Assembly: GCA_043804895.1 (NCBI GenBank)
Contig: JAZDIN010000025.1
Coordinates: forward strand, 36,764-100,763
Source: Candidatus Altiarchaeota archaeon
GTDB taxonomy: Archaea; Altiarchaeota; Altiarchaeia; IMC4; SCGC-AAA252-I15
Direction of reading: 5' to 3'
DNA length: 64,000 bases
Position 1 is the stretch's first letter, and each line of letters begins with the position of its first letter. This document shows positions 1,032 to 62,900 of this stretch, in pieces. The notes beneath the pieces were generated by a model. The model did no database searches, was not told the origin of the DNA, and saw only the letters and a list, made by a program, of their open reading frames with translations. The position numbers were made by a program, and so were the translations under genes.

Positions 1032-1385
1032 ATGCTTTACGCGGCCTTGTTCGTCTCAGTATTGGGTTTGTTTTTGATTTCATTCATCTCTCCGTCGATT
1101 AAGCCTCCGCGTTCCAGCGTCTGTGATGTAACATCATCCTCGCTTGAGAAGGTTGTCGTGGTAGGAGGCAACATCACAAGGGTTCATGAGTTCAAGGGCG
1201 GGAGTATGGCCTTGACTTTGTCTGACAGTGGTTGCGACATTGAAGTCTACCTGTCATATGACGTTGCAGCATCACTCAACAGCACCACCCTACTTGGTAG
1301 GCGTGTGGAGTTGTCGGGGGTTGTGCAGATTTATCGGGGTAGGGTGGAGGTTGTGGTTGAGAAGCCTACTTTGGTGTTGAGATGA
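1032..1385 (+). CDS. membrane-anchored OB-fold (tRNA_anti-like) nucleic-acid-binding domain protein
   Basis: N-terminal hydrophobic helix followed by ...VVVVGGNITRVHEFKGGSMALTLSDSGCDIEVYL...GRRVELSGVVQIYRGRVEVVV, a typical OB-fold nucleic-acid-binding segment. Its stop overlaps the start of the next gene (ATGA). Confidence 0.45.
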   Translation: MLYAALFVSVLGLFLISFISPSIKPPRSSVCDVTSSSLEKVVVVGGNITRVHEFKGGSMALTLSDSGCDIEVYLSYDVAASLNSTTLLGRRVELSGVVQIYRGRVEVVVEKPTLVLR

Positions 1386-2161
1386 TACGCGCGTCTGACC
1401 TTAGCAGGTTCACGTACTGTGCTCGCCTCATCTACCTATACTCAGTGCTTGGCTTGGAAGAAGAAAAAACTCCAGAGCGGATTAGGGGCGTCGTAGGCCA
1501 TGCAGTGAGGCGTGAATTGTCTATGAGGCAGGCTCGCCTATTGGGGGGTATTCGCTCAGAGGAGGATGTGTATCATATCCTGTGTATGGAGCTTGATTCA
1601 GCTTTCTCTGACCTGCCGTGCATATTTGCGCAGGAGTGGTCAGCACTGCATTCTATCTTAATACCTGAAGTCAAGGCTGAAGTGCTAGCTGAATTGGATA
1701 CACTCCAGAAGGATTTGGAGGCTATGGTCGAGGACGTCGGCTTCGAGAGGGCATTGAAGATAGTCACCCCCTGGAGGATAGAATACAACCTGAAGTCCGA
1801 CTCTCTGGGCCTTTCAGGCCGCGTTGACAAGATAATGTATAACAGTGGTCTGGTCCCAGTTGACATAAAGACCGGTGTTGCCTCTGAGTTGGGGTGGGAA
1901 AGCGACAGGATACAGTTGTGCGCCTACGGTATGCTCATGGAAGACAAATTCAGCGGAAACATACCCTACGGTCTTTTAGAGTACACGAGAATTGCGAAGA
2001 GGAGGCCGGTCTTGTTCACAGAGGAACTGAGGCGACAGGTGTTTGACGCCCGTGACGGCGTTCAAGAAATCCTGGAGGGGGCGGCCCCAGACGTGTGCCC
2101 GCATGGTCAGCCGAGAAAATGTGAGTCATGCAATCTAAGGGATGAATGCTACAGGAATTAG
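1382..2161 (+). CDS. Cas4-like PD-(D/E)XK (RecB-family) nuclease with a 4-Cys Fe-S cluster (DUF83-like)
   Basis: N-terminal FTYC cysteine, VDIKTG (D-x-K) and QLCAYG (QxxxY) motifs, and a C-terminal [18 protein letters not shown] cysteine cluster. This matches the Cas4/AddB-nuclease signature. No CRISPR array or other cas genes are nearby. Confidence 0.55.
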
Positions 2162-2494: not shown

Positions 2495-3367
2495 TCAGGT
2501 TAGCAGGTCAGTCAGCTTGACCTTCTTTTCAGGCCGCTTAATCCCCGGTTCTCCTTTTATCCCGCCAAGCTCCGCTGCCATTTTAACAGCATCGTCCAAT
2601 CCACCTAACTCATCAACTAACCCCAGCTCCTTAGCCTCACTCCCCAGGTAAATCTTCCCCTGTGATATGTTACTGACGTAAGCCATGCTCAGGTTGCGGT
2701 TCTTTGCGACATCAGAAGTGAAACTGTAATAAACCTTATCCATCATACCCTGCAACTCTCCCTTCTCCTCCTCTGTCATAGGCCTGTAAGGGCTTGCGAT
2801 GTCCTTGCTATCACCTGCCTTCAGCACTGTGACGTTGACGCCAATCTTGTCCATGAGTCCATAGTAGTGGGTGACCGGCATGATAACCCCTATGCTCCCA
2901 GTCATCGAATCCTCGTCAGCCATGACCTTGTCCGCTGCGGAGGCCGCATAGTACGCCCCTGAAGCTCCAATTTCCCCTATCCATGCAACGGTTGGTTTCT
3001 CAGTCTTCTTCACAGCCCTCATAAGCTCCCTTGACGCTACGACGTTTCCACCGCCTGAGTAAACGTCCAACACTATAGCCTTAACGTTGAAGTCACTTTC
3101 AGCCTCCTTAAGCTGGGACTTTATCTCATCAACGTCTGCGCAGCTTTCAGTGAATAGGATGCTAGTTGGGCAGCCGCCTAATGTGATCTCACCGTGGATT
3201 GGGATGATGGCAACATCCCCCCCTCCAATGGTGGGCATGTCGAATCCGCTCATCAGGCCGGCCATGATGAAAGCTATGATAAGCACAAACAGCCCCAACA
3301 CCCCGAAGGTCACAACAACCTTCCAAAAAGTCCGCACCACCAACACCTCTACAACTATAATACGCAA
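2495..3367 (-). CDS. sppA: signal peptide peptidase SppA (S49 serine protease), membrane anchored
   Basis: N-terminal TM helix; VKAIVLDVYSGGG, the catalytic region ...TGSIGV... and general S49 architecture. The track start is a TTG, so the true start is uncertain. Confidence 0.75.
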   Translation of the reverse strand: MRIIVVEVLVVRTFWKVVVTFGVLGLFVLIIAFIMAGLMSGFDMPTIGGGDVAIIPIHGEITLGGCPTSILFTESCADVDEIKSQLKEAESDFNVKAIVLDVYSGGGNVVASRELMRAVKKTEKPTVAWIGEIGASGAYYAASAADKVMADEDSMTGSIGVIMPVTHYYGLMDKIGVNVTVLKAGDSKDIASPYRPMTEEEKGELQGMMDKVYYSFTSDVAKNRNLSMAYVSNISQGKIYLGSEAKELGLVDELGGLDDAVKMAAELGGIKGEPGIKRPEKKVKLTDLLT

Positions 3368-3449: not shown

Positions 3450-3531
3450 GTGCTGTCGAGCGTTAGCGATGTGACCGAGATTTTTGTCTCGGACACACAC
3501 CCGACGCTTTGCGTCGGTTGTGAGACAGCAC
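3450..3531. ncRNA. candidate small structured RNA / regulatory element, copy 1
   Basis: Closing helix GTGCTGTC (3450-3457) / GACAGCAC (3524-3531). It encloses ATGTGA, hairpin 1 CCGAGAT-tttt-GTCTCGG, ACACACACC, hairpin 2 CCGACGC-ttt-GCGTCGG and TGTGA. A second copy at 59855-59916 has an identical hairpin 1 and ACACACACC but a covarying hairpin 2. Confidence 0.3.
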
Positions 3532-3556: not shown

Positions 3557-3630
3557 TGCGACTGCCGGGATTTGAACCCAGGTCGCGAGATTGGCAACCT
3601 CGAGTGATAGCCAGACTACACTACAGTCGC
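3557..3630 (-). tRNA. tRNA-Gly (anticodon GCC)
   Basis: Manual cloverleaf fold: acceptor GCGACTG/CAGTCGC, D-arm GTGT-AGTCTGGCTA-TCAC, anticodon stem CGAGG/TCTCG with loop TTGCCAA (anticodon GCC), V-loop CGAC, T-arm CTGGG-TTCAAAT-CCCGG, discriminator A. No encoded CCA. An AT-rich TATA-like box lies upstream (3643-3670). Confidence 0.8.
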
Positions 3631-5002: not shown

Positions 5003-6004
5003 TTGGAGGTTGAGATGATAAGTCTACTTGCTGTTTTGGCGGTCTCGTTTGCGTTCACTTACCTGACTGTCCCCTGGTTCATTCCGCGGCTTTTGAAGGC
5101 TAAGATAGCAGGCAGGGACATGAACAAGCAGGGCAACATTGTTGTTCCTGAGATGGGCGGTTTCGCCATCATAGGCGGCTTTTTGGTCGGGGTGCTGTTC
5201 GCCATCGCCCTCACCACATTCAATGTGGTTGGCGTGGAGATGAACCTCACATACGTCCTGGCTTGTCTGTCAACCGTCCTCCTCATGGCATTGATAGGGG
5301 TCATAGATGACCTCCTACTCTTGGACCAGCGCGTTAAGGCAATCCTACCTGTCTTCGCAGCGTTGCCTTTGGTTGCAGTCAGCGCTGGGGTTCAATCGAT
5401 GGAACTCCCTATTTTCGGCGTGGTCGACTTCGGTATACTCTACCCGCTCATCGTAATACCTATCGCAATCACAGGGGCATCCAATGCGACTAACATGCTC
5501 GCCGGGTTCAACGGGCTTGAGGCCGGGTTGGGGATTGTCATGTGCTCGACCGTCGGGTTGGTGGCCTACAGTCTAGGTCGTGTCGAGGCTGTTGTCATCG
5601 TGTTCGCGATGCTTGGCGCCCTTTTGGCGTTCCTCAGGTACAATTGGTACCCTGCCAGGATCCTCATAGGCGATGTCGGGACTTTGAGCATCGGGGCTGT
5701 CGTCGCCTCGTCCGTGATTGTCGGCAACATAGAGAAGGTCGGCATCATACTGATAGCTCCATTCTTCCTCGAGCTTTACCTTAAGGCAAGAAGCAGGTTT
5801 AAGGCGCAATCATGGTGCGAGCTTAAGGGTGGCAGGCTCCTCTGCCCTAAGTTGAGCGAGGTTTATGGCATTGGTCGGCTTGTAATGTATATCAACGGGG
5901 GGGTATCGGAGAGGAAGCTTGTGCTGAGCATCATAGCGTTCGAGTGTCTCTTCGCATTACTTGCGTTGTATTCGTTTTCTGGGGTTTTATTGGCTACCAT
6001 ATGA
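5003..6004 (+). CDS. UDP-HexNAc:polyprenyl-phosphate HexNAc-1-phosphate transferase (MraY/WecA/AglH family)
   Basis: Polytopic membrane protein with the ASNATNMLAGFNGLEAG and VIDD motifs of the glycosyltransferase-4 (GPT) family. Confidence 0.7.
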   Translation: MEVEMISLLAVLAVSFAFTYLTVPWFIPRLLKAKIAGRDMNKQGNIVVPEMGGFAIIGGFLVGVLFAIALTTFNVVGVEMNLTYVLACLSTVLLMALIGVIDDLLLLDQRVKAILPVFAALPLVAVSAGVQSMELPIFGVVDFGILYPLIVIPIAITGASNATNMLAGFNGLEAGLGIVMCSTVGLVAYSLGRVEAVVIVFAMLGALLAFLRYNWYPARILIGDVGTLSIGAVVASSVIVGNIEKVGIILIAPFFLELYLKARSRFKAQSWCELKGGRLLCPKLSEVYGIGRLVMYINGGVSERKLVLSIIAFECLFALLALYSFSGVLLATI

Positions 6005-11955: not shown

Positions 11956-13847
11956 CCCCCAGCCTCCTCCATGAAAATCTCATGCCATGTCTTAAAGCAG
12001 TGTAACAGCCCCCAAAGCCTACGACCGTTCTCGTATTCTGTGTCTTTCGCCCTGGATTTCATGTAATGTTCAAGCAACCTCATTGTATTGGCTTTCCTGA
12101 AGTACTCTGTTCTGTCAATGAACTTCAAGACATTATCGAAGTCTGCCTTCAGTTCCTCCTTCAGCCACGCATCGAATGGTATCTCGAACCCGTGTTTTTT
12201 CCGCCTGACTATGCTCTTTGGGAGAATGTCTTTCACAGCCTTCCTGAAGATCATCTTATCCTTGCCTGCAATGCCGACCTTCATATAGGATGGTATCGTG
12301 TAAGCGTGTTCCACGAGCAGTTGGTCCAAGAGCGGAGACCTAGCTTCTACAGAATGTGCCATCGTCATCTTATCTACCTTCATTAGGAAGTCCTCAGCAA
12401 GCCATGTCTTCACGTCAAGATAAAGTATCCTGTTCAGGAAATCATTGCCTTTCGACTCCTTTGCATGTGATATGTGGGGCTCAACAGTCAGCTCATATGG
12501 ATTCGACTCGAAGATATCACGAGCTAGGACATCTTTCTTATACTCCTCTGTGAGCACCCTCGAGCCCCTGATGTACGTCCCCTTTAAGTCTCTCGCACTC
12601 CTGATAACATTTCTAACGTCCCTTGAGTCAGCCATGTTATCCATGAGGTCGCCGACGTGTTTATTGTCAGCAGCAAGGTTCAAAAGACGTGAAGTGAGCG
12701 GGATGTTGAATAGGAACTCCCGCTTTCTAACCCACCTGTACTTCGAATACCCCCCATACAGCTCATCGCCTCCGTCGCCTGTGAGATACACCGTCGCATG
12801 CTTCTTCGCGTATTTGCTCATAAGGTATGTCGGGACAATAGCATAGTCAGCAATCGGTTCGTCAATGTGCCATACAATATCCCTAAACGATTTCATCGCA
12901 TCACCGCCAATCACGATTTCAGTATGCTCGGTGTTGAATTTTTCAGCGACTATGCGCGAGTAGGGTCGCTCGTCAAGTCCGCCCCATTCAAACCCGATGG
13001 ATATAGTCTTCACAGTCTCTTCCCCTAGTCTAGAAGCCAAAGCCACAATGGTGCTGGAGTCAAGCCCGCCAGAGAGGTATACGCCAAGCGGGACGTCGCT
13101 CACCAGCCTCATAGCGACCGCATCCTCAAGGAGCATCATCATCCCAGATATGAACTGTCGTTCGCTCTTGGCCACATTACTCTCAAGGTCAATATCCCAA
13201 TACTTTTCTAACATGACCCTACCTTCCCTCACAGTCATATGGTGTCCAGGCCTCAGCTTGTGCACCCCATCGAACATAGTCAGAGGTGCTGGGACGTACT
13301 GGTGGGTCATGTAGGCGTTCAAACCTTCCAATGAAACCTTCCTCACGAATCCAGGATACCTAAGCATCGCCTTTATCTCAGAGGCGAATATGAAATTGCC
13401 TTCCACTAGGGAGTAGTAAAGCGGCTTCTTCCCAAGTCTGTCCCTGGCCAGGAAAAGGCGTTCCCCCTTCCTGTCCCATATTGCGAATGCGAACATGCCT
13501 CTTAGTTTTTTCACGCAGTCTTTGCCGTATTCCTCGAAGCTGTGTATTATGACTTCCGTGTCTGTGTCGGTCCTGAACCTGTGTCCTTTGGCTTCTAGGT
13601 CTGCTCGCAGACTCTTGAAGTTGTATATCTCCCCGTTGTAGACTATCCATATGTCTCCGTCCTCGTTGCACATCGGCTGGCGGCCTCGTTCGCTCAGGTC
13701 TATGATGCTCAACCTAGTGTGGCCGAGGCTGATTCCCGCATCAGTGTATACTCCAGAATCATCCGGCCCACGATGCCTGAGAGATTCTCCCATCCTCTCA
13801 AGAAGTCCTCTGTCATCAACACCCAGTATGCCGAATATCCCGCACAT
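11952..13847 (-). CDS. asnB: asparagine synthetase B-type glutamine amidotransferase (AsnB/WbpS/PseA-like), copy 1
   Basis: MCGIFGILG Ntn-amidotransferase start, the SGGLDSS PP-loop, 631 aa. Confidence 0.8.
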   Translation of the reverse strand: MCGIFGILGVDDRGLLERMGESLRHRGPDDSGVYTDAGISLGHTRLSIIDLSERGRQPMCNEDGDIWIVYNGEIYNFKSLRADLEAKGHRFRTDTDTEVIIHSFEEYGKDCVKKLRGMFAFAIWDRKGERLFLARDRLGKKPLYYSLVEGNFIFASEIKAMLRYPGFVRKVSLEGLNAYMTHQYVPAPLTMFDGVHKLRPGHHMTVREGRVMLEKYWDIDLESNVAKSERQFISGMMMLLEDAVAMRLVSDVPLGVYLSGGLDSSTIVALASRLGEETVKTISIGFEWGGLDERPYSRIVAEKFNTEHTEIVIGGDAMKSFRDIVWHIDEPIADYAIVPTYLMSKYAKKHATVYLTGDGGDELYGGYSKYRWVRKREFLFNIPLTSRLLNLAADNKHVGDLMDNMADSRDVRNVIRSARDLKGTYIRGSRVLTEEYKKDVLARDIFESNPYELTVEPHISHAKESKGNDFLNRILYLDVKTWLAEDFLMKVDKMTMAHSVEARSPLLDQLLVEHAYTIPSYMKVGIAGKDKMIFRKAVKDILPKSIVRRKKHGFEIPFDAWLKEELKADFDNVLKFIDRTEYFRKANTMRLLEHYMKSRAKDTEYENGRRLWGLLHCFKTWHEIFMEEAGG

Positions 13848-15019
13848 TACCTAATGCACCCACCATAGACTTTGATTGTGTCGGCAACCATCTTCTCCCT
13901 GCTGAAGCCCTCCTCTATTGTCTTGCGTGCTGAACTTCCAAGTCGCCTTGCCAGTTTCTCATTTTCAAGGACTTCAATCAACCTATTAGCAAGCGTGTCA
14001 ATGTCTTTAGGCTTGACCAGTAAACCGTTAACGCCGTCGGTGATTACTGACGGAATCCCCCCAATCTCAGAGGCTATTACCGGTTTCCCGCAGGCCATAG
14101 CCTCAAGTTCAATTAAAGGCAGACCCTCAACACGGATGGTAGGTATTATGAAAGCTTCACAGGCGTTGTAGTAGTCTGCCAATCCCTCGTGTTGGACCTT
14201 TCCCATGAATGTGACATTTTTTCCAAGTTTCAGTCTGATAGTCCGTTGTTCTAAACTCTTACGGTAAGGTCCGTCCCCGACTACTATGAGATGCGCGTTT
14301 GGAATCCTATCAACAAGCTTTGCGAGAGCCTCAATGAGGTACTGCACACCCTTCTGCCTGTGCAGGACCGAGACGCTAAGAATAATCCTCTCTCCTGGAT
14401 ACTCCCCCATAACCTTGCTAGCATACGATCTAAATACTGTAGTGTCAATGCCATTGTATATGGTTTTAACCGTGTCCTTGGCTATGTTGAATTCTTTTGG
14501 TATATCCTCACTGAGTTCCTTGCTTATAGCTATCACCGCCTCGCTTTCCTTTATGAATTCTTTTGTCCAGTAATAGTGGTTAAAGGTATGGAACAGAATT
14601 TTCGGAAATAGCATCAGACTGAAACCCTGGTTGATGATGCTTCGGATTTCGCTCAATGACGTTCCATGCATCGTCGTGATCAAAGGCACTCCCAGCCTCT
14701 TTTTGATTCCATCGCGCACGTAATAGAAGGCAGCTGTAGACTGGCTGTGTACGACGTCAAATTTCTTTTCCCTGTGTAGTTCTTCCAGTTTATTCAAGGC
14801 TTTCCTACCAAGTGGTTTCTTGCTTGTTGCATCGACGTCCGTATAATAGATTTCGACTCCGTCCACGGACTCATGCATAATCCCACTCGGGTGCCTGCTC
14901 GTTATGACTATAACCTCATGTCCGGATTTTGCTATACCTTTCGCCAAATCCATGGCGTGTATCTCCATCCCACCCAGAACGTGAGACGGCAACAGCATCG
15001 TGAACATGCAAACTCTCAT
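13847..15019 (-). CDS. GT4-family glycosyltransferase
   Basis: MRVCMFTMLLPSHVLGGMEIHAMDLAKGIAKSGHEV N-terminus; C-terminal RVEGLPLIELEAMACGKPVIASEIGGIPSVITDGVNGLLV motif. The start was set at the ATG at 15019; the 15106 extension would read through two palindromes. Confidence 0.7.
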   Translation of the reverse strand: MRVCMFTMLLPSHVLGGMEIHAMDLAKGIAKSGHEVIVITSRHPSGIMHESVDGVEIYYTDVDATSKKPLGRKALNKLEELHREKKFDVVHSQSTAAFYYVRDGIKKRLGVPLITTMHGTSLSEIRSIINQGFSLMLFPKILFHTFNHYYWTKEFIKESEAVIAISKELSEDIPKEFNIAKDTVKTIYNGIDTTVFRSYASKVMGEYPGERIILSVSVLHRQKGVQYLIEALAKLVDRIPNAHLIVVGDGPYRKSLEQRTIRLKLGKNVTFMGKVQHEGLADYYNACEAFIIPTIRVEGLPLIELEAMACGKPVIASEIGGIPSVITDGVNGLLVKPKDIDTLANRLIEVLENEKLARRLGSSARKTIEEGFSREKMVADTIKVYGGCIR

Positions 15020-15038
15020 TACAAATACGCGAGGATAT

Positions 15039-15089
15039 TCGCTAGACTGCAGTCTAGCGAATGTGTGCGAGCATGGCTCGCCCACATTC
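15039..15089. promoter_or_regulatory. two adjacent palindromes upstream of the GT4 gene: TCGCTAGACTGCAGTCTAGCGA (perfect, 22 nt) and GAATGTGTGCGAGC-ATG-GCTCGCCCACATTC (31 nt, one mismatch)
   Basis: Read directly; they lie 20-70 nt upstream of the 15019 start and downstream of the stop of the methyltransferase gene. Confidence 0.4.
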
Positions 15090-15172
15090 CCTTTACTCGC
15101 TTGCACCTCCTACGTGTTTTCGACTGTTTGACATTTTAAGTGTTAATACTGACGCCTTTAAGATTCGGTCAT

Positions 15173-32405: not shown

Positions 32406-33526
32406 TTCTCGACGAGGTTCCTGTCCTCAAGCTCCTTCAGGGCATCTTGGCTTCTGTCTTCTGCCTCCTGTTTTGCGCCCCATTTCACCAGGTCTCTCAT
32501 CCCGTCCTCGAACTTCACGTTCGGTTTGAAGCCTATCTTCCTTATCTTAGTGATGTCAGCGTAGCAGTGCCTTATGTCGCCTGCCCGGTATTTGTTCTTG
32601 ATTTCAGGCTTGATTCTTTTGCCGTATAGCTTGGCAAATGTTTCGGCTATGTGCAACACAGTGACTGGTTTGCCTGTGCCGACGTTGAACATCTCATAAT
32701 CTGCCTTCCTGCTATCCAACACCAGCATGTTGGCTGCGACGATGTCCCTAACATCTATAAAGTCCCGGCTCTGCAGCCCGTCCTCATAGATGACTGGGGG
32801 GTTGTCGTTTTTTATATTGGATTGGAATATCGCGCACACTCCAGTGTATGGATTGGAAAGTGACTGCCTTGGGCCATATACGTTGAAATACCTCAAGGCA
32901 ACGGATGGTATGCCATATGCTTTCCCAACGGACAGGACCATCTCCTCCTGGTCGCGCTTGCTGACGGCGTAAACTGAAGTTGGCCTAAGCGGTTTATCCT
33001 CCGGTGTCGGGGTAGATATTGCCTCACAACCACAGCATGGGCATCTCATCTCCCACTCATGCGATTCAAGCTGCTTCTGCTGCCGGTAGTCTGGTATTAT
33101 CCTTCCACATTTGCTGCACTCGTACACGCCTTCACCGTATATGCTCATGGAACTTGCCACAACAATCTTTTTTATGTCGTATTCTCCATTCACTATCTCG
33201 TCGAGGAGAAGTCCAGTGCCCCTGCAATTGACGTCAACATAATAGTCTATGAGGTACATGGACTGGCCTACCCCGACAGCCGATGCTTCGTGGAAGACGA
33301 CATCAACATCTGATAAGGCGCGTTTTAGGTCGTCTCGGTTTCTAACGTCCCCCCCGATGAACTTGGCCTTCTGGTTCAAGTAATCTGGATTCTTCCGGTC
33401 TTTGCCATGGACTTGCGGGTCAAGGTTATCGAGTATCCTCACATCGTTTCCGCGTTTTATAAGTTCGTCGACTATGTGGCTTCCTATGAAGCCAGCGCCG
33501 CCAGTGACAAGAACAGAATGTTTCAT
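32402..33526 (-). CDS. NAD-dependent epimerase/dehydratase (SDR) with an inserted 4-Cys zinc ribbon
   Basis: MKHSVLVTGGAGFIGSHIVDEL; YAVSKRDQE (YxxxK). An insertion reads CSKCGRIIPDY...CPCCGCE. Confidence 0.6.
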   Translation of the reverse strand: MKHSVLVTGGAGFIGSHIVDELIKRGNDVRILDNLDPQVHGKDRKNPDYLNQKAKFIGGDVRNRDDLKRALSDVDVVFHEASAVGVGQSMYLIDYYVDVNCRGTGLLLDEIVNGEYDIKKIVVASSMSIYGEGVYECSKCGRIIPDYRQQKQLESHEWEMRCPCCGCEAISTPTPEDKPLRPTSVYAVSKRDQEEMVLSVGKAYGIPSVALRYFNVYGPRQSLSNPYTGVCAIFQSNIKNDNPPVIYEDGLQSRDFIDVRDIVAANMLVLDSRKADYEMFNVGTGKPVTVLHIAETFAKLYGKRIKPEIKNKYRAGDIRHCYADITKIRKIGFKPNVKFEDGMRDLVKWGAKQEAEDRSQDALKELEDRNLVEK

Positions 33527-33543: not shown

Positions 33544-34485
33544 TTACTGGTTTTTATAAATGCCTTCCACCCACTCCACTGTCCCTTTGAGGCCGTCGTC
33601 GAACTTGACCTTAGGGGTCCAGTCCAACTCCCCCCTAGCCTTCGTAGTGTCCGAGGATGTGTGCTCTACGTCGCCTTTCTGGTCCTCTACGTACTTTATC
33701 CTCCCCTTACCCGTTAGTTCGATTATCCTCTCAGCCAACTCTTTCACTGTTATTGTCGTGCCTCCGCCTATGTTGTATGCGCCGCTACCCCTCGTCAAGG
33801 CAAGTGTCGTGGCCTCCACAGCGTCCGAGACATGGGTGAAGTCGCGGCTTTTGCTACCGTTCCCATAGACCTCCAATTCTCCGCCTGCAAGAGCCAACCT
33901 CGTGAACTTTGAAATCGCAAGGTCAGGCCTAATCCTCGGTCCGTACACGGTGAAATACCTCAGCGCAACATACTTCATACCATAAAGCTCCTCATAGACT
34001 CTGAAATAGTTTTCACATGCCAGTTTGCTGACACCATACGGTGATATTGGGGTTTTCGGGTGTTCCTCGTCGAAGGGCAGGTACTCGACCCTGCCGTATA
34101 CTGATGAAGAAGAAGCGAAGACAGTCTTTTTCACATCCGAATCCCGCGTTGCCTCAAGCAGGTTCAGCGTTCCCGTGACATTGACTTCGTTGGTTTTCAC
34201 AGGGTTGTCGACTGATGCCCTCACACCCGCTTGCGCAGCCTCATGAACCACGTAATCTGGTTCCTCCTGCGATACTACCCTCTTGAGCCTCTCCAAATCC
34301 CTTATATCTGCCTTAATCAGCTTGAACTCCCCAACTATAGGCCTGATGTTGTCTCTTTTTATTTTTTTGCTGTAGTAGTCGTCAAAGTTGTCAATGCAGG
34401 TCACATCATGCCCGTCTTTAACCAACCTCTCGCACAAGTGTGAACCTATGAAACCCGCCCCTCCAGTAACAAGAACCCTACTCAT
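33544..34485 (-). CDS. NAD-dependent nucleotide-sugar 4-epimerase (UDP-GlcA/UDP-Glc 4-epimerase-like SDR)
   Basis: MSRVLVTGGAGFIGSHLCERL; YGVSKLACE; 313 aa. Confidence 0.65.
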   Translation of the reverse strand: MSRVLVTGGAGFIGSHLCERLVKDGHDVTCIDNFDDYYSKKIKRDNIRPIVGEFKLIKADIRDLERLKRVVSQEEPDYVVHEAAQAGVRASVDNPVKTNEVNVTGTLNLLEATRDSDVKKTVFASSSSVYGRVEYLPFDEEHPKTPISPYGVSKLACENYFRVYEELYGMKYVALRYFTVYGPRIRPDLAISKFTRLALAGGELEVYGNGSKSRDFTHVSDAVEATTLALTRGSGAYNIGGGTTITVKELAERIIELTGKGRIKYVEDQKGDVEHTSSDTTKARGELDWTPKVKFDDGLKGTVEWVEGIYKNQ

Positions 34486-46242: not shown

Positions 46243-47230
46243 GCCGGGGTATCCATCCTGTCTCTCTCCTCATCTTCGTATAATCCACTCCAAGCCTCAT
46301 CAAGTCGGTCTTACCTGGTCTGTACCTCACTTTATCCTCCCTCACCTTGACAGTACCCCAATACCCTTCCTCCTGTCCACATTCTATTATGAATTTGGCC
46401 CAGTCGCCAATGCTAATGTCCTTGCCGTAGCCGTAGGAGTATGTCTGCCCTGGCTTCCCTTTGAGTGTCGCGTAGATGTGTCCTCTCACGCCATCTAGGA
46501 CGTAGGTGAAGTCTCTCGTAGGCTTAAGTGCCCCCAATAGCACCTCCTTCTTGTTCAGGGCCTGCGTTATAATTGTCCCTGTCACATACCTGGGACTCTG
46601 CCTTGGGCCGTAGTTGTTGAACATACGGGTTATAACCGTCGGCACGCCATAGGCGTTGTAGAAGTTCTTGCATAGGAAGTCTCCCGCGACTTTAGAGACT
46701 GCATAAGGGCTTTCGGGATTGATAGGGCTTCTCTCGTTGAATATGATTATGCCATCCTTGTTGAACGTGTACAGGTCTTTCATCTCCTCTACCATGTTGC
46801 CGAATTCTTCGCTCGTGCCTGCAAAGTCCATTTTCAACAGGTCAAGGTCCTCATCGACTACCGATTGTAGGATGTTTAGCGTCCCGATGGTGTTCGCTTG
46901 GAATGTCTCATAAGGGCGCTGCCAGCTTTCCCCTACGTGTGCCTGCGCCCCAAGGTGGAAGATTATCGGCTTGTCTTTTGCCTCAGCCTTGAGCCTCCTG
47001 ATAGTCAACCTCACTGACAAGGGGTCGGCTAGGTCTCCTCTGTGCACCTTGACTTTCCTCAGGAGATGCCCGATGTTCTTCATCTCCCCGCTTGATGTCG
47101 CCCTAATGAACACATGAACGTCGCTTCCGTATTCAACAAGCTTCTCTGTCAGGTGGCTTCCCATGAAGCCGTCAGCTCCCGTCACAAGGATCGTCCTATC
47201 CCTCAACTCCCCCACAAGCCTGTCTTCCAT
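46160..47230 (-). CDS. NDP-sugar 4,6-dehydratase (GDP-mannose / GDP-heptose 4,6-dehydratase, Gmd/DmhA-like)
   Basis: ILVTGADGFMGSHLTEKL...VHVFIR; PYAVSKVAGD; NNYGPRQSPRYV; 4,6-dehydratase-length C-terminus. The start was chosen at MEDR (ATG 47230) with CTATATTTTA upstream. The 47305 extension is low-complexity. Confidence 0.55.
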   Translation of the reverse strand: MEDRLVGELRDRTILVTGADGFMGSHLTEKLVEYGSDVHVFIRATSSGEMKNIGHLLRKVKVHRGDLADPLSVRLTIRRLKAEAKDKPIIFHLGAQAHVGESWQRPYETFQANTIGTLNILQSVVDEDLDLLKMDFAGTSEEFGNMVEEMKDLYTFNKDGIIIFNERSPINPESPYAVSKVAGDFLCKNFYNAYGVPTVITRMFNNYGPRQSPRYVTGTIITQALNKKEVLLGALKPTRDFTYVLDGVRGHIYATLKGKPGQTYSYGYGKDISIGDWAKFIIECGQEEGYWGTVKVREDKVRYRPGKTDLMRLGVDYTKMRRETGWIPRHDRRESVKETIKYYAENKDKWWGRIDW

Positions 47231-52988: not shown

Positions 52989-53975
52989 GTGATGAACAGG
53001 CTCATCCTGACGCTGTTGGTGGTTGTTTTGTCCTTGAGTGCCTGCATATCTCAAAGTCCCACGTGCGTTGCACCATACATTTCTGTCGCCGGCTCATGCT
53101 GTCTTGACGAGAACGCTGACGGCATATGCGACCGGGATAAGCCAGTATGCCGCAGGCCGTACTCTCTTGTTGGTTTGTCATGCTGTCTTGATGAGAACGC
53201 TGACGGCATCTGCGACTCAGACAGGCCTGTGACGACCACATCCATAATGACGACTTCGACTGTGGCTGCAACGACGTCGACTACCAGGCCCACCTTCAGG
53301 ACTACTTCGACTACCACCCTGCTTGATGTAGAGTGTATGAGTTTCGAGGACTGCTCCTCATCTGATGGCGTACAATGCGACGACGACGGCCGCGTGGTTC
53401 TAATTCACTATACTCCAACGTCCTGTTCTGGCGGAAAATGCATCTACAGGAGCAGCCGGGACATAGCCGCCATCCACTGCTACGACTGGGAGCAGTGCGT
53501 CAGCGGGGTCGGTTGTGTCAGGAAGACTGACGTGACCTCCACGTCGACGACCTTGGCGCCGGATATACTGGTGCAATCACAGTTCCAGAAAATCCTCGAC
53601 AGGGTCATTGAACGGAAGTCTGAGATTGCAGCTTCGATGGCCTCAACGACAACAACACTACAGCCGTGCGTCGACCCCGACGGCGGGAAGAAATACGACA
53701 TAAGGAGCGTGAACGTCTCAGGCTACTTCGACTACAACAAAACCCAAGTCCTAAGCGGAAGCGAATACTGTTGGGACAACCTCAAACTAGTGGAATTCTA
53801 TTGCGAAAAAACAGCTGGCGTGGAAAGCCTGGAGTCAGTGGTATACGACTGCACAAGCCGTTGCATAGACGGCCGATGCTGCAGCAGCGAAGGCCGGACG
53901 TGTGAGAGCTGGAGGGACTGCTGCAGTGGCTTATGCCAGGCCGTGGGTATGGCAAATTACTGCATAGCGACTTGA
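52989..53975 (+). CDS. secreted/lipoprotein-like cysteine-rich protein with a duplicated CCLDENADGICD module and a Thr-rich linker
   Basis: Signal peptide MMNRLILTLLVVVLSLSAC (lipobox-like). The repeats are VAGSCCLDENADGICDRDKPVC and LVGLSCCLDENADGICDSDRPV. A TTTSIMTTSTVAATTSTTRPTFRTTSTTT linker follows. The C-terminal tail is CCSSEGRTCESWRDCCSGLCQ. Confidence 0.45.
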   Translation: MMNRLILTLLVVVLSLSACISQSPTCVAPYISVAGSCCLDENADGICDRDKPVCRRPYSLVGLSCCLDENADGICDSDRPVTTTSIMTTSTVAATTSTTRPTFRTTSTTTLLDVECMSFEDCSSSDGVQCDDDGRVVLIHYTPTSCSGGKCIYRSSRDIAAIHCYDWEQCVSGVGCVRKTDVTSTSTTLAPDILVQSQFQKILDRVIERKSEIAASMASTTTTLQPCVDPDGGKKYDIRSVNVSGYFDYNKTQVLSGSEYCWDNLKLVEFYCEKTAGVESLESVVYDCTSRCIDGRCCSSEGRTCESWRDCCSGLCQAVGMANYCIAT

Positions 53976-59773: not shown

Positions 59774-59854
59774 TTTGAGTTTTTTACCTGGTTTCTCAGA
59801 ATATATCCTCCTAAAATCAAATACCGCACCCTTAAGGGTGCGGTATGACTTACA

Positions 59855-59916
59855 ATGTGGCCGAGACAAATGTCTCGGACACACACCGGAGGCTAAGAGC
59901 CTCCGATGTGATACGC
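59855..59916. ncRNA. candidate small structured RNA / regulatory element, copy 2 (upstream of ileS)
   Basis: ATGTGG, hairpin 1 CCGAGAC-aaat-GTCTCGG, ACACACACC, hairpin 2 CGGAGGCT-aag-AGCCTCCG, ATGTGA. It follows the same layout as the 3466-3529 copy, with compensatory changes in hairpin 2. Confidence 0.3.
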
Positions 59917-59995
59917 TCAAAATGCCAAATACTCAAACAAGTAAAGGAGGTGCATATGCAAGAGTGGAATTCGTCGTAATTCCTCTGCGACATAA

Positions 59996-62900
59996 ATGTT
60001 GCAGTATCCTTGCGAGTTTGTAATGGTTGTCGAATCTGTGAGTGACTTTGATCCGAAGGCTCTTGAGGAGCGCATACTCGAGTATTGGCGCAAGAACAAG
60101 GTGATGGAGGAGACCCTGAAGCCCCGGAAGGGCGAACTATTCTCCTTCCTTGAGGGCCCTCCGACAGCCAACGCTTCACCAGCGCTACACCACGTGGAGG
60201 TGCGCACATTCAAGGACCTCATCAACCGATTCAACTTCATGCTCGGATGCTCTGTGCCAAGGAAAGCGGGGTGGGACTGCCATGGCCTCCCGGTGGAAGT
60301 GCAGGTTGAAAAGGAACTTAAGCTCAACAGCAAGAAGGAGATAGTGAAGTACGGGGTTGACAGATTCGTTGACATGTGCCGGCAGAGCGTCTTCAGCCAC
60401 ATCAAGGAGTGGGATGCGCTCACTGAGAGGATGGCGTACTGGGTCGACTTGGAGAACCCGTATGTCACAATGGACAACGAATACATAGAGAGCGTCTGGT
60501 GGAGCATAAAGAAGCTATGGGACAATAAAATGCTGTACGAGGGCGACCGGGTGGTGCCATTGTGCCCGCGATGCGGCACGCCGTTATCGTCTCACGAGGT
60601 CGCCTTAGGATATCAGACGGTTAAAGAGGAGACAGTCATCGTTTCATTCCGGGCTAAAGGAAGGGATTTCGGCATTCTAGCATGGACTACCACTCCGTGG
60701 ACACTACTTAGCAACGTAGCACTAGCAGTCCACCCTGATGTGACATACGTTGTGATAAAATACAACGGCGAAAAGTACGTTCTCGGCAAAGACCTCGCTG
60801 AAAAAAGGTTCCCCGAGGCGGAGATTGTCGGGAAGATGAAAGGCAAAGACCTCGTTGGAGTGGAATATCACCCTCTCTTCAACCACTTCATAGGAAAACT
60901 GGATAAGCCAGCCTGGAGGGTGATATCAGGCGACTTCGTTACAACCGAAGAGGGTACTGGGATAGTCCATATTGCTCCAGCCTTCGGTGAGGACGACTAC
61001 AACGTTGGTGTCAAAAATGGCATGCCTGTGATAAACCCGGTTGACGTTGAGGGCAAGTTCACATCAGACGTGCCTGAGCTCGCCGGGACCTTCGTCAAGG
61101 ACGCTGACCCCAAGATAATAGGATGGCTTGACGAGATGGGCCTCCTGATAGCGCACTACCCATACGAGCACGAGTACCCCTTCTGTTGGAGGTGTAAGAC
61201 GCCGCTACTCTACTATTCGATGAAGTCTTGGTTCATCAAAGTCAGCCAGTGTGTGCCGAAGCTTGTTGAACAGAACAATAAGGTAAAATGGTATCCTGAA
61301 ACGATAGGTTCAGGTCGTTTCGGCAACTGGGTTGAGAACGCCAGGGACTGGAGCCTAAGCCGCAACCGATTCTGGGGGACTCCTCTGCCCATATGGCAAT
61401 GCCATTGCGGGCAGGCTAAGGTCATCGGCTCAAGGCAGGAGCTTGAGGAGAACGCAACAACCAAGATGAAGCCTGAAATGGACCTACACAGACCCCACGT
61501 GGACGAAGTCAAACTACGGTGCAAATGCGGCGGGGAAATGAAAAGAGTAGAATACGTCATAGACTGCTGGTACGACTCCGGCGCTGCAACATTCGCTCAG
61601 TTCCACTACCCCTTCGAAAACAAAGAACTGTTCGAAAAAAGCTTCCCCTACGACTTCATATGCGAGGCCACAGATCAAACGAGAGGTGGGTTCTACACGC
61701 TTCTTGTCATCTCTGCACTGATTTTCGATAAACCTGCGTATAAGAGCTGCGTCGTAGGCGGCCTCCTACTTGACGACAAGGGGGAGAAGATGAGCAAGAG
61801 CAACAAGAATATTATAGACCCCTGGCAGCTGTTCAACACGTTCGGCGCCGATGCAGTGAGGCTTCAGATGTGCTCAACCGCCCCATGGAACTCCAAGAGG
61901 TTCGGGCAAGACAGCATGAACGAGTCAGTGATACCTATGCTCCGTACACTCTGGAACTGCTACTCGTTCACAGCCCGCTATATGCTCCTTGACGGCTTCG
62001 ACCCCAAAGAGAACAAACTGGATGAAAGGTACCTTTCTCTCGAGGACAAGTGGGTGCTAGCAGCAGCAGACTCCATGGTAAGCTCAGTAACAGAATCCCT
62101 CACACTACACGAATACCACCACGCCCTAGCGAGGATTTACAATTTCATAGTCGAGGACCTCTCTCGCTGGTACATCAAGATAATACGGGACAGGCTCTGG
62201 CTAGAGGATAAGGAAGGCAGAATCAACCCATCCAAAAAGGCAGCCTACATGACCTTGACCGCAGTGTTCGAGAAGGTCTGTCTCACAATGGCTCCGCTTG
62301 CGCCTTTCACAAGCGAGGAGATATTCCTGAATCTCGTCAGAAAAGAAGGCAATAGCATACACCACATGAGCTGGCCTAAGCCGAAGAAGCCTGATGAGAG
62401 AATCCTCAGGGAGATGAAGATAGTCCGCGCGATATTCGAGGCAGGCAGCAAATGCCGCCAGGATGCGAAGATAAAGCTGCGCTACCCGATAAGGAAGGTC
62501 ACGGTCTCAGGCGACGCCCACATAAAAGGGGCAGTGGAAGAACTTAGTGGGATAATAACAAAGCAGCTCAACTGCAAGGAAGTGGAGTTCGTCTCAACCC
62601 TCCCTGAAATCAGCTACGCCGCTGTGCCTGACTTCAAAATCATAGGCCCGAAGCTAGGGAAAGACGCAGGCCGTGTAGCGCAGCTGATAAAGTCGAATCC
62701 GATGGAAGCCAAGAAGATAAAGGAGTCTAAGAAGTCTGGGAAAATAGGCGACACCGAAGTTGAGCCTGAGATGGTTTCTGAGATAAAACTCATAATATCA
62801 GAGAAGTACGCTGCAGCCAACTTCACCCACGGCCAATCAGCTGGAATAGTCCTCATAGAAACAGCCAGGGACAAAAGCCTCCAGAACGAAGCCCTAGCAA

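What the first reader, a model, noticed from the sequence alone, without database searches (positions are those of the whole stretch)
3450..3531. Duplicated ~60-nt element (CCGAGA-N4-TCTCGG-ACACACACC-hairpin-TGTGA), copy 1; its second hairpin covaries with the ileS-proximal copy
The same architecture occurs at 3466-3529 and at 59855-59916, both written on the + strand. Hairpin 1 and the ACACACACC spacer are sequence-identical apart from loop bases. Hairpin 2 has a different sequence (CCGACGC/GCGTCGG vs CGGAGGCT/AGCCTCCG) but keeps the stem length and position. Compensatory change is the classic signature of a functional RNA rather than a protein-binding DNA site. Copy 1 is additionally enclosed by an 8-bp helix. 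There are no C/D or H/ACA boxes.
Basis: seen in the sequence. Interest (0 to 1): 0.55.

Follow-up and report, generated by a model that had tools for sequence, protein, structure and literature searches.

The report
Dispersed twin-hairpin repeat of Altiarchaeota
The duplicated 60-nt sequence is one copy of a real, previously undescribed family of small double-hairpin repeats scattered through a few uncultivated Altiarchaeota genomes; it behaves like a recently inserted structured module, not a conserved RNA gene.

Summary
Window 3469-3523 and 59855-59911 share ATGTGR-CCGAGA-N4-TGTCTCGG-ACACACACC plus a second hairpin, and 3450-3457 pairs with 3524-3531. A covariance model finds a third, diverged copy at 15037-15087 (-). 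Ten more copies lie on Candidatus Altiarchaeota contigs. The model finds none on 92 control loci and no Rfam family matches.

All 13 copies fold as two abutting stem-loops. The (CA)4 run is paired, not a spacer. Stem 1 is 97% paired with three compensatory pairs. Stem 2 comes in a few recurrent types, with one true C-G > U.G > U-A series.

The element is not conserved by position. It is absent from three orthologous sites in sister genomes, sits in both orientations between unrelated genes, and is cleanly present or absent inside copies of a second repeat. That second repeat is a roughly 85-180-nt cassette ending exactly at start codons, including ileS.

Best reading (0.45): a low-copy, recently spreading structured repeat, analogous to bacterial REP/BIME or Correia elements. 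It would act as stable RNA hairpins once co-transcribed. Rivals are an sRNA family and a protein-binding leader element.

Strand, transcription and the copying mechanism are not shown. Interest is moderate.

The parts
3450..3457 (+). 5' arm (GTGCTGTC) of the 8-bp closing helix around copy 1
   Evidence: The L029 copy has GAGCCATC/GATGGCTC at the same place, which is three compensatory differences.
3458..3469 (+). Linker GAGCGTTAGCGA between the closing helix and the core. L029 has GAGCGGAGCGA here.
3470..3497 (+). Stem-loop 1 of copy 1: TGTG-A-CCGAGA-TTTTTG-TCTCGG-A-CACA
   Evidence: (73.5 bits).
3498..3522 (+). Stem-loop 2 of copy 1: CAC-CCGACGC-TTT-GCGTCGG-TT-GTG
3524..3531 (+). 3' arm (GACAGCAC) of the closing helix
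59855..59911 (+). Copy 2 of the twin-hairpin module. Stem 1 is CCGAGAC/GTCTCGG and stem 2 is CGGAGGCT/AGCCTCCG. It is inserted in the left arm of the pre-ileS cassette.
   Evidence: (77.4 bits).
15037..15087 (-). Copy 3, diverged: ATGTGG-GCGAGC-CAT-GCTCGC-ACACA-TTCGCTAGAC-TGCA-GTCTAGCGAA. It lies inside the cassette in front of a GT4 glycosyltransferase gene.
   Evidence: (29.2 bits, E 4.6e-5).
59847..60025 (+). Pre-start-codon cassette carrying copy 2. Left arm is GACTTACAA (interrupted by copy 2) then ACGCTC, followed by AAAATG. AGGAGGTGCA lies at 59945-59954. Right arm GCGAGTTTGTAA lies at 60012-60023 and overlaps the ileS ATG at 60023.
   Evidence: (61.5 bits).
15016..15153 (-). Second cassette copy, ending at the ATG (15022-15020) of the GT4 gene. 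It carries copy 3.
   Evidence: 60.8 bits.
59821..59846 (.). Hairpin ATACCGCACCC-TTAA-GGGTGCGGTAT directly upstream of the cassette. It is a recurrent module that also lies next to elements in L016, L021, L029 and L031.

Best explanation
The feature is one copy of a lineage-restricted family of roughly 55-nt twin stem-loop modules in Candidatus Altiarchaeota. Its form is (A)TGTG-R-[CCGAG.. loop ..CTCGG]-A-CACA|CAC-C-[variable 6-10-bp hairpin]-..-GTG.

I read it as a small, low-copy, non-autonomous structured repeat that has recently been inserted or duplicated at many unrelated intergenic places. It is a functional analogue of bacterial REP/BIME or Correia-type elements, not a positionally conserved RNA gene.

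The proposed working has three steps.
1. The sequence-conserved half (TGTGG, stem 1 and CACACACC) is the part recognised by whatever trans-acting factor copies or binds the element.
2. The unit lands preferentially in loops or arms of existing hairpins and in 5' leaders, without target duplication.
3. When the host region is transcribed, the unit folds into two abutting GC-rich hairpins. These are neutral or mildly useful: a barrier to exonucleases, or a spacer inside a structured leader.

Shown: the family, the conserved pairing, the dispersal, the clean presence/absence, and the absence at orthologous sites.

Inferred: mobility as the cause, the recognition role of stem 1, and any effect at the RNA level.
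For: Family and specificity:
- Exact-pattern scans plus covariance model R1 recover 13 copies. All lie on Altiarchaeota-type contigs.
- The model finds nothing on 50 chance-pattern loci or on 42 viral loci.
- IleS of the window is annotated as Candidatus Altiarchaeota.

Structure:
- Eight close copies are 98.8% paired over 21 pairs, with 0 of 500 shuffles as good.
- Stem 1 in 11 distinct sequences is 97.2% paired, with 3 pairs changed on both sides.
- All 13 cores fold into the twin hairpin.

Not conserved by position:
- The syntenic NTP-transferase / tRNA-Gly / S49 locus L107 lacks the element.
- The PolB-FKBP spacer is 281 nt with the element in L029. It is 164 nt without it in L108, and 34 nt in another relative.
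- ileS of four contigs (L101-L104) carrying the two nearest IleS relatives (72-74% identity) has a 41-45-nt plain upstream region.

Dispersal:
- Neighbouring genes are unrelated: tRNA-Gly/S49, PolB/FKBP, two PMT genes, an aldolase, Memo, and a DDE transposase.
- Copy 1 and L038 are antisense to both neighbours. L031 has an inverted copy next to a direct one.

Clean module behaviour:
- Cassette copies differ by exact 54-55-nt presence or absence at two sites (TTACAA^AC.CGC and GTCGYAA^TTCC), with no duplication.
- A third insertion separates the ATAC hairpin from ATGACTTACAA in L031.

Within-contig sameness:
- The variable top of stem 1 is the same on one contig (window ..GAC/GTC..; L031 twice, and also L041, ..GCC CAAAA GGC..).
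- It differs between contigs even at the same cassette site.

Background: Altiarchaeum has the highest reported MITE density among archaea (PMC11602168).
Against: - Copy number is low. There are 3 copies in 64 kb here and 1 in 22 kb of the L029 genome. Only single exact-pattern hits occur in two of the 185,579 species-representative genomes scanned, and 7 loci among 241 million metagenome records. REPs and MITEs usually number tens to hundreds (PMC2817692, abstract listed).
- No transposase candidate was found.
- The closing helices differ between copies, so they are not transposase-type terminal repeats.
- TGTGG, stem 1 and ACACACACC are conserved between contigs of 49% and 65% G+C. That looks more like functional constraint than a decaying selfish repeat.
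- All six leader-associated copies (five inside cassettes, and L049 abutting a cassette's left arm) are in the sense orientation.
- Wobble pairs favour the ACACAC strand, 4 G.U against 1 A.C by my reading.
Confidence: 0.45

Rival explanations
1. A family of small non-coding RNA genes. Each stand-alone copy, with its closing helix and extra 5' hairpin(s), would be transcribed as a stable 80-130-nt multi-branched RNA. The conserved stem 1 and ACACACACC would be its protein-binding or base-pairing surface.
For: - L016 and L021 (distant genomes, 53% and 65% G+C) each hold one copy enclosed by a 12-14-bp closing helix.
- Both share (G)ATGATGT..CCGAGC..GCTCGGACACACACCAAAAGCGC.
- On the ACACAC strand, each is followed by a hairpin plus T-run. 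Fold z-scores are -6.9 and -6.6.
- The closing helix covaries between w1 and L029.
- The low copy number fits gene-like behaviour.
Against: - There is no positional conservation.
- The TATA-like boxes near L016, L021 and L038 are placed correctly for the divergent neighbouring genes, not for the element (my reading).
- Many copies sit inside leaders of mRNAs.
- Complementary GGTGTGTGT sites are not enriched in the window: 15 found against 11.6 expected.
- No Rfam family matches.
Confidence: 0.2
2. A cis-acting RNA operator. Stem 1 and CACACACC would be bound by a lineage-specific RNA-binding protein, or would act as a processing or stability signal, that controls the mRNA carrying it. It would work together with the structured pre-start-codon cassette.
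For: - Six copies lie in or directly before a cassette that ends at a start codon, and all are in the sense orientation.
- The cassette has a covarying long-range helix that pairs its 5' end with the last 12 nt before the ATG. A GGAGG box pairs with CCUY.
- Stem-2 type I (GGAGGC/GCCUCC) mimics a Shine-Dalgarno / anti-Shine-Dalgarno pair.
Against: - Copy 1, L038 and the inverted L031 copy are antisense to every neighbouring gene.
- L029 is in a 3' region between convergent genes.
- The element is optional within the cassette. The window ileS cassette lacks it at site b and L041 lacks it at site a.
- The downstream genes are functionally unrelated.
Confidence: 0.2
3. Ends of, or a miniature derivative of, a single-strand-DNA transposon of the IS200/IS605 / REP-RAYT type. 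This is a specific version of the mobile reading. The two imperfect palindromes on one strand would be the hairpins bound by a Y1 (HUH) transposase, with insertion lacking target duplication.
For: - There are two imperfect hairpins on the same strand, each with an internal mismatch.
- There are no terminal inverted repeats of constant sequence and no target duplication at the filled/empty comparisons.
- A conserved short tag (TGTG) lies 5' of stem 1, in the position where REPs carry GTAG (PMC3733652, abstract listed).
- The hairpin sequence is uniform within a contig.
Against: - No Y1 transposase was found in about 230 kb (weak test).
- The unit is much more compact than known left-end plus right-end pairs.
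- The 5' flanks are only loosely similar (..AA, ..GA, ..T).
- Copy number is low.
- To my knowledge RAYTs are described in bacteria only.
Confidence: 0.1
4. A double-stranded DNA operator: two palindromes bound by a dimeric transcription factor.
For: CCGAG..CTCGG is an almost invariant inverted repeat. Several copies lie near promoters and gene starts.
Against: - The inner stem positions and the whole of stem 2 change while staying self-complementary. A factor reading fixed half-sites does not require that.
- Some copies lie between convergent genes (L029).
Confidence: 0.03

Closest known systems
Bacterial REP sequences and BIMEs (mosaic intergenic palindromic repeats), including REPIN doublets
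   Same: - Short GC-rich imperfect palindromes with a conserved short tag 5' of the stem.
- Strictly intergenic.
- Occur singly, in tandem and in inverted pairs, mixed with other short modules (here the ATAC..GTAT hairpin and the cassette).
- Co-transcribed with neighbouring genes.
- Sequence is uniform within a contig but differs between contigs.
   Different: - The host is archaeal.
- The unit is two different hairpins in direct order joined by a shared (CA)4.
- The tag is TGTG, not GTAG or CGTC.
- Copy number is units rather than hundreds.
- No RAYT was found.
MITEs such as Neisseria Correia elements
   Same: - Small non-coding dispersed units near gene starts.
- Able to form long hairpins in mRNA.
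- Show presence/absence between related genomes.
   Different: - There are no constant terminal inverted repeats. The closing helices differ between copies and covary.
- There is no target-site duplication.
- At 55-82 nt the unit is shorter.
IS200/IS605-derived palindrome-associated elements (PATEs)
   Same: - Hairpins lie on one strand.
- There are no terminal inverted repeats.
- Insertion and absence are scar-free.
   Different: - No conserved target tetranucleotide is evident.
- No TnpA or TnpB gene is nearby.
- The unit is far more compact.
Archaeal C/D-box and H/ACA guide sRNAs
   Same: - Small size and an archaeal host.
- Some copies have a terminal helix.
- ATGATGT in L016, L021 and L047 resembles box C, and ACA follows a hairpin.
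   Different: - There is no box D (CUGA), no D'/C' pair and no guide spacing.
- There is no pseudouridylation pocket or K-turn.
- No Rfam family scores at E below 0.08 on any copy.
Structured 5' leaders with an upstream ORF that overlaps the main start codon (termination-reinitiation coupling). This comparison is for the cassette that hosts copies 2 and 3.
   Same: - In 5 of 6 cassettes an ORF from the conserved AAAATG ends at TAATG, or 1 nt before the main ATG.
- A long-range helix covers the start region.
   Different: - The same leader is a dispersed repeat in front of unrelated genes.
- The peptide itself is not conserved.
- No such element has been described for Altiarchaeota, to my knowledge.

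Membership tests
REP / BIME (RAYT-associated) | 20-40-nt imperfect palindrome located in intergenic DNA | tested here: met
   Each half is a 24-30-nt imperfect palindrome. All 13 copies are intergenic.
REP / BIME (RAYT-associated) | High copy number (typically more than 100 per genome) | tested here: not met
   There are 3 copies per 64 kb here and 1 per 22 kb in L109. Two species-representative genomes have single hits, and 7 metagenome loci match. Complete genomes were not available.
REP / BIME (RAYT-associated) | Conserved GTAG or CGTC tag at one end | tested here: not met
   The tag is (A)TGTG(G/A).
REP / BIME (RAYT-associated) | A cognate RAYT (Y1 transposase) gene in the genome, often flanked by REPs | tested here: inconclusive
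The rest of the genomes was not searched.
MITE | Terminal inverted repeats of the same sequence in all copies | tested here: not met
   The closing helices are GTGCTGTC, GAGCCATC, GAAGAGC, TTACCTGTTGGC and GAAGAGGTCGC in different copies. The embedded copies have none.
MITE | Target-site duplication flanking the element | tested here: not met
   Filled versus empty cassette sites show no duplicated bases: TTACAA|AC.CGC and GTCGYAA|TTCC.
IS200/IS605-type miniature element | Subterminal hairpins on one strand, with no inverted repeats and no duplication | tested here: met
IS200/IS605-type miniature element | Insertion 3' of a fixed tetra- or pentanucleotide, with TnpA present | tested here: inconclusive
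   The 5' flanks end in ..CAA..GAA..CGA..TGA..GCT and ..GAT. No TnpA was found.
Archaeal C/D-box sRNA | Boxes C (RUGAUGA) and D (CUGA), with internal D'/C' and 10-12-nt guides | tested here: not met
   Only a box-C-like ATGATGT is present, in 3 of 13 copies. There is no CUGA at the required places. Rfam is negative.
Archaeal H/ACA sRNA | Hairpin with a pseudouridylation pocket and a K-turn or K-loop, then ACA | tested here: not met
   Stem 1 has only a 1x1 G.A or A.A mismatch. There is no pocket and no GA tandem.
Archaeal bulge-helix-bulge intron | Two 3-nt bulges separated by a 4-bp helix at the element boundaries | tested here: not met
   The flanks of sites a and b, and the closing helices of w1 and L021, have no such motif (my reading).
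Any Rfam 15 family | Score at or above the family's gathering threshold | tested here: not met
   Only tRNA-Gly matches in the window. The local E-value searches and the 8 homologous loci give nothing relevant.

The most novel reading that the evidence does not exclude
The twin hairpin and the pre-start-codon cassette would together form a new post-transcriptional control system specific to Altiarchaeota. The conserved stem 1 and CACACACC would be the docking site of a dedicated RNA-binding protein or RNP. The cassette would be a new class of translational leader: a long-range helix over the start codon, an internal GGAGG paired to CCUY, and a through-reading upstream ORF that ends on the main AUG. 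This leader would have been copied in front of unrelated genes (ileS, rps17, a GT4 glycosyltransferase, T2SSF, a DUF362 Fe-S protein and a MarR-like regulator).
Probability: 0.2. Interest if true: 0.7.

Novelty: new variant of a known kind. Interest (0 to 1): 0.45.

Why it matters
Altiarchaeota are uncultivated, and almost nothing is known about their non-coding DNA or RNA.

If the reading is right, an archaeal lineage holds REP/BIME-like structured mosaic repeats. These would include a portable leader that ends exactly on start codons, which gives a natural handle on how such archaea build and rewire translation-initiation regions.

The two covariance models made here can be run on any Altiarchaeota genome or metatranscriptome. 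That would settle within days whether the elements are selfish passengers or regulators.

If the elements turn out to be mere repeats, they are still useful strain markers, and annotators should be aware of them. In L101 the 980 nt between the flagellin gene and ileS carries a called 232-residue gene with no Pfam hit. That stretch has no element or cassette, and I did not check whether the call is real.

Tried and rejected
- **Rfam.** I searched the whole window, both local regions at E up to 10, and the 8 homologous loci. Only tRNA-Gly matched.
- **C/D, H/ACA, K-turn and bulge-helix-bulge readings.** I checked these by eye and dropped them.
- **Viral contigs.** There were 42 pattern matches, none with the full architecture.
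- **Control loci.** None of the 50 chance-pattern loci from bacteria matched the model.
- **Target search for a trans-acting seed.** GGTGTGTGT (up to 1 mismatch) occurs 15 times against 11.6 expected.
- **Choosing the strand by folding energy.** Both strands fold alike.
- **Own promoters.** The TATA-like boxes next to L016, L021 and L038 fit the divergent neighbouring genes instead.
- **Y1 transposase search.** Nothing was found, and the queries came from memory.
- **My first assumption about L031 and L041.** I took them for ileS orthologues, which was wrong. Their downstream genes are T2SSF and DUF362. The 'presence/absence' comparison is therefore between dispersed cassette copies, not orthologous loci.
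- **True orthologous tests.** I then ran these separately.
- **The window's own 150-kb contig.** It could not be retrieved.
- **Shared genes.** The window and the element-bearing loci share no gene, so their relatedness could not be measured.
- **A mistyped sequence.** One search used one, and I replaced it.

Full report
**1. Observation**

Both copies are in the sequence as described.
- Copy 1 core is 3469-3523, enclosed by GTGCTGTC (3450-3457) and GACAGCAC (3524-3531).
- Copy 2 core is 59855-59911.
- They share ATGTGR-CCGAGA-N4-TGTCTCGG-ACACACACC at fixed spacing and end in TGTGA.
- The 15-mer TCTCGGACACACACC has only these two exact matches in 64 kb.
- Both regions fold much better than shuffles: z -4.7 and -4.4 on the + strand, -6.0 and -4.6 on the - strand.

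The (CA)4 run is not a single-stranded spacer. UGUG before stem 1 pairs with the first CACA, and the following CAC pairs with GUG after stem 2. The unit is therefore two abutting stem-loops of about 11-12 bp, each with one internal mismatch.

**2. Surroundings and organism**

- tRNA-Gly(GCC) lies at 3557-3630 on the minus strand.
- Copy 1 sits between it and an S49 peptidase gene (2495-3367, -), and is antisense to both.
- Copy 2 lies upstream of ileS, whose ATG is at 60023. It follows an archaeal flagellin gene and an RFC small-subunit gene.
- The IleS protein is identical to an NCBI entry from a Candidatus Altiarchaeota MAG, on a 150,761-nt contig.
- No Rfam family other than tRNA matches the window or the two regions.

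**3. Relatives**

I scanned 185,579 species-representative genomes for CCGAG-N5-9-CTCGGACACACAC. That gave 23 loci, of which only two have the whole architecture: L016 and L021, both Altiarchaeota MAGs.

The metagenome scan added L029, L031 (two copies), L038, L041, L047 and L049.

I built covariance model R1 from eight copies. Its results:
- It scores the known copies at 73-79 bits.
- It finds a third window copy at 15037-15087 (-), 29 bits, with stem 1 GCGAGC/GCTCGC and stem 2 TTCGCTAGAC/GTCTAGCGAA.
- It finds an inverted copy in L031 at 55 bits.
- It finds nothing in 50 chance-pattern loci or 42 viral loci.

The family is real, specific and so far confined to Altiarchaeota contigs.

**4. 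Structure conservation**

- On the eight close copies, 98.8% of cells pair over 21 pairs (0 of 500 shuffles as good). Shifted registers drop to 21-46%.
- Stem 1 over 11 distinct sequences is 97.2% paired, with three pairs changed on both sides. The sixth pair alone is A-U x4, C-G x2 and G-C x2.
- Stem 2 is not one evolving helix. It is a small set of recurrent types:
  - CGGAGGC in w2, L031a and L049.
  - CCGAYGC in w1, L029, L031b, L038 and L041.
  - AAAAGCGC in L016 and L047.
  - Others.
- Inside the CCGAYGC type there is a genuine series: C-G (w1), U.G (L031b), U-A (L029).
- The closing helix of copy 1 (GTGCTGTC/GACAGCAC) and that of L029 (GAGCCATC/GATGGCTC) differ at three positions, all compensated. 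The two units also share the linker GAGCG..AGCGA.

Pairing is therefore maintained. This excludes a simple double-stranded operator. It does not distinguish RNA from single-stranded DNA.

**5. Not conserved by position**

Three orthologous-locus tests all came out negative.
- L107 has NTP-transferase, tRNA-Gly(GCC) and S49 peptidase in the window's order. Its tRNA-S49 spacer has no element. It holds three copies of the tRNA 3'-end fragment instead.
- The convergent PolB/FKBP pair carries the element in L029 and L109, in a 281-nt spacer. A relative with 77% PolB identity (L108) has 164 nt and no hit. Another, at 79%, has a 34-nt spacer.
- The four contigs (L101-L104) that carry the two nearest IleS relatives (72-74% identity) have only 41-45 nt of plain sequence between the preceding called gene and ileS. 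Their 75 kb holds no element.

The genes next to the stand-alone copies are unrelated. Copy 1 and L038 are antisense to both neighbours.

**6. The second repeat**

Copies 2 and 3 lie inside a larger dispersed cassette. Its layout is:
- (ATGAC)TTACAAAC.CGC
- TYAAAATGYCAAA
- about 15 A-rich nt
- AGGAGGTGCA
- a short covarying helix
- GCG.GTTTGTA-ATG

The final ATG is the start codon of the downstream gene. The downstream gene differs from copy to copy:
- Window: ileS and a GT4 glycosyltransferase.
- L041: a MarR-like gene and a DUF362/Fe-S gene.
- L031: T2SSF, directly after T2SSE.
- L049: rps17, directly after an ORF ending ...RPEDRIKKKHRIRF that I take, by recall and without a search, to be an RNase P protein gene.

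I had first taken L031 and L041 for ileS orthologues. One search corrected that.

The cassette's two ends form a 12-bp helix that covaries:
- TTACAAACTCGC/GCGAGTTTGTAA
- TTACAAACACG/CGTGTTTGTAA
- ATTTCAAACATG/CATGTTTGAAAT

RNAalifold finds four pairs with compensatory change. It also pairs GAGG of the GGAGG box with CCUY next to the 3' arm.

Model R2 finds only these six cassettes in about 240 kb.

In five of six cassettes an ORF from the conserved AAAATG reads through the whole cassette, 19-51 codons. It ends at TAA overlapping the main ATG, or at TGA one base before it. The peptide itself is poorly conserved.

**7. Module behaviour**

Cassette copies differ by exact presence or absence of the 54-55-nt element.
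- Site a is inside the left arm, between TTACAA and AC.CGC. It is filled in the window and L031 and empty in L041.
- Site b is in the loop of the inner helix. It is filled in L031, L041 and the window GT4 cassette, and empty in the window ileS cassette.
- Neither site shows duplicated bases.
- In L031, removing element a restores a perfect 12-bp left arm.
- A third, inverted insertion separates the ATAC..GTAT hairpin from ATGACTTACAA in L031.
- The variable top of stem 1 is uniform within a contig and differs between contigs even at the same cassette site.

**8. Interpretation**

Taken together, these features fit a small structured repeat that has recently been copied into intergenic hairpins and leaders:
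- sequence conserved but position not conserved;
- either orientation;
- clean module-like gain or loss;
- uniformity within a contig;
- strictly intergenic location;
- association with other short repeated modules.

It is an archaeal analogue of REP/BIME or Correia-type elements. I give this 0.45.

The published report that Candidatus Altiarchaeum has the highest MITE density among archaea (PMC11602168) makes such elements unsurprising in this phylum.

The element fails the formal definitions of a MITE (no constant inverted repeats, no target duplication) and of a REP (different tag, low copy number, no RAYT found). I therefore file it as working like these, not as a member.

The main rivals are a family of small RNA genes (0.2) and a cis-acting protein-binding leader element (0.2). 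Three points favour them:
- the low copy number;
- the strong conservation of stem 1 and ACACACACC across contigs of 49-65% G+C;
- the sense orientation of all six leader-associated copies.

The L016 and L021 units also have long closing helices and a following hairpin with a T-run.

**9. What remains unknown**

Three things are open: the transcribed strand, whether any copy is expressed on its own, and the copying mechanism.
- Folding energy does not choose a strand.
- Wobble pairs lean to the ACACAC strand, but only 4 to 1.
- No complementary targets are enriched.
- No Y1 transposase was seen in the limited sequence held.
- The window's own contig could not be fetched for a full census.

Noticed in passing
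window 59847-60025 (+) and 15016-15153 (-); L041 2744-2828 and 3461-3639; L031 1309-1485 (-); L049 677-765 (-): A dispersed 85-180-nt cassette ends exactly on the start codon of unrelated genes. Its covarying 12-bp long-range helix pairs the 5' end with the last bases before the ATG, and it has an internal AGGAGGTGCA box. It may be a new kind of translational leader.
   Followed up: partly
same cassettes, from the conserved AAAATG (window 59922) to the main ATG: In 5 of 6 cassettes an upstream ORF of 19-51 codons reads through the whole cassette, including the 54-nt element at site b. It stops at TAA overlapping the main ATG (TAATG) or at TGA 1 nt before it. The peptide sequence is poorly conserved.
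   Followed up: partly
window 59821-59846; L016 1759-1784; L029 2326-2351; L041 8878-8903; L021 about 5585-5620; L031 upstream of its elements: A recurrent hairpin has fixed ends ATAC..GTAT and a variable self-complementary interior. It sits after gene ends and next to the twin-hairpin elements, and is followed by a T-run in L016 and L021. It may be a lineage-typical terminator or another repeat module.
   Followed up: partly
L107 4640-4800: Downstream of tRNA-Gly(GCC), the 3'-end fragment TGCGACTGTCGGGATT of the tRNA is repeated twice more. One repeat forms a long palindrome. It looks like the scars of integrative elements at the tRNA gene.
   Followed up: no
L108 12400-12440 versus 12290-12322: There is a partial duplicate of the last roughly 30 nt of the PolB gene in the PolB-FKBP spacer. 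Fragments next to it (GGAGCGA, GATGATGTG) resemble the 5' part of the L029 element unit.
   Followed up: no
L041 2686-2719: A perfect tandem direct repeat, GTAACAAACTGAAACAA x2, lies upstream of a cassette. It contains a TAACAAAC motif like the cassette arm.
   Followed up: no
window 1382-2161 (+): A Cas4/Csa1-like PD-(D/E)XK nuclease gene is present, although the 64-kb window has no CRISPR array or any tandem repeat.
   Followed up: no
L047 161-1096 (-): A DDE (IS4/IS5-type) transposase gene lies directly upstream of the L047 element copy, where the homologous copy in L016 has other neighbours. It is probably an independent insertion.
   Followed up: no
window 53094-53146 and 53178-53230; 32867-32917, 33934-33984 and 46601-46651: Other direct repeats are present: 53 nt at 85% identity spaced 84 nt apart, and a three-copy 51-nt family. 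They probably lie inside paralogous coding sequence.
   Followed up: no
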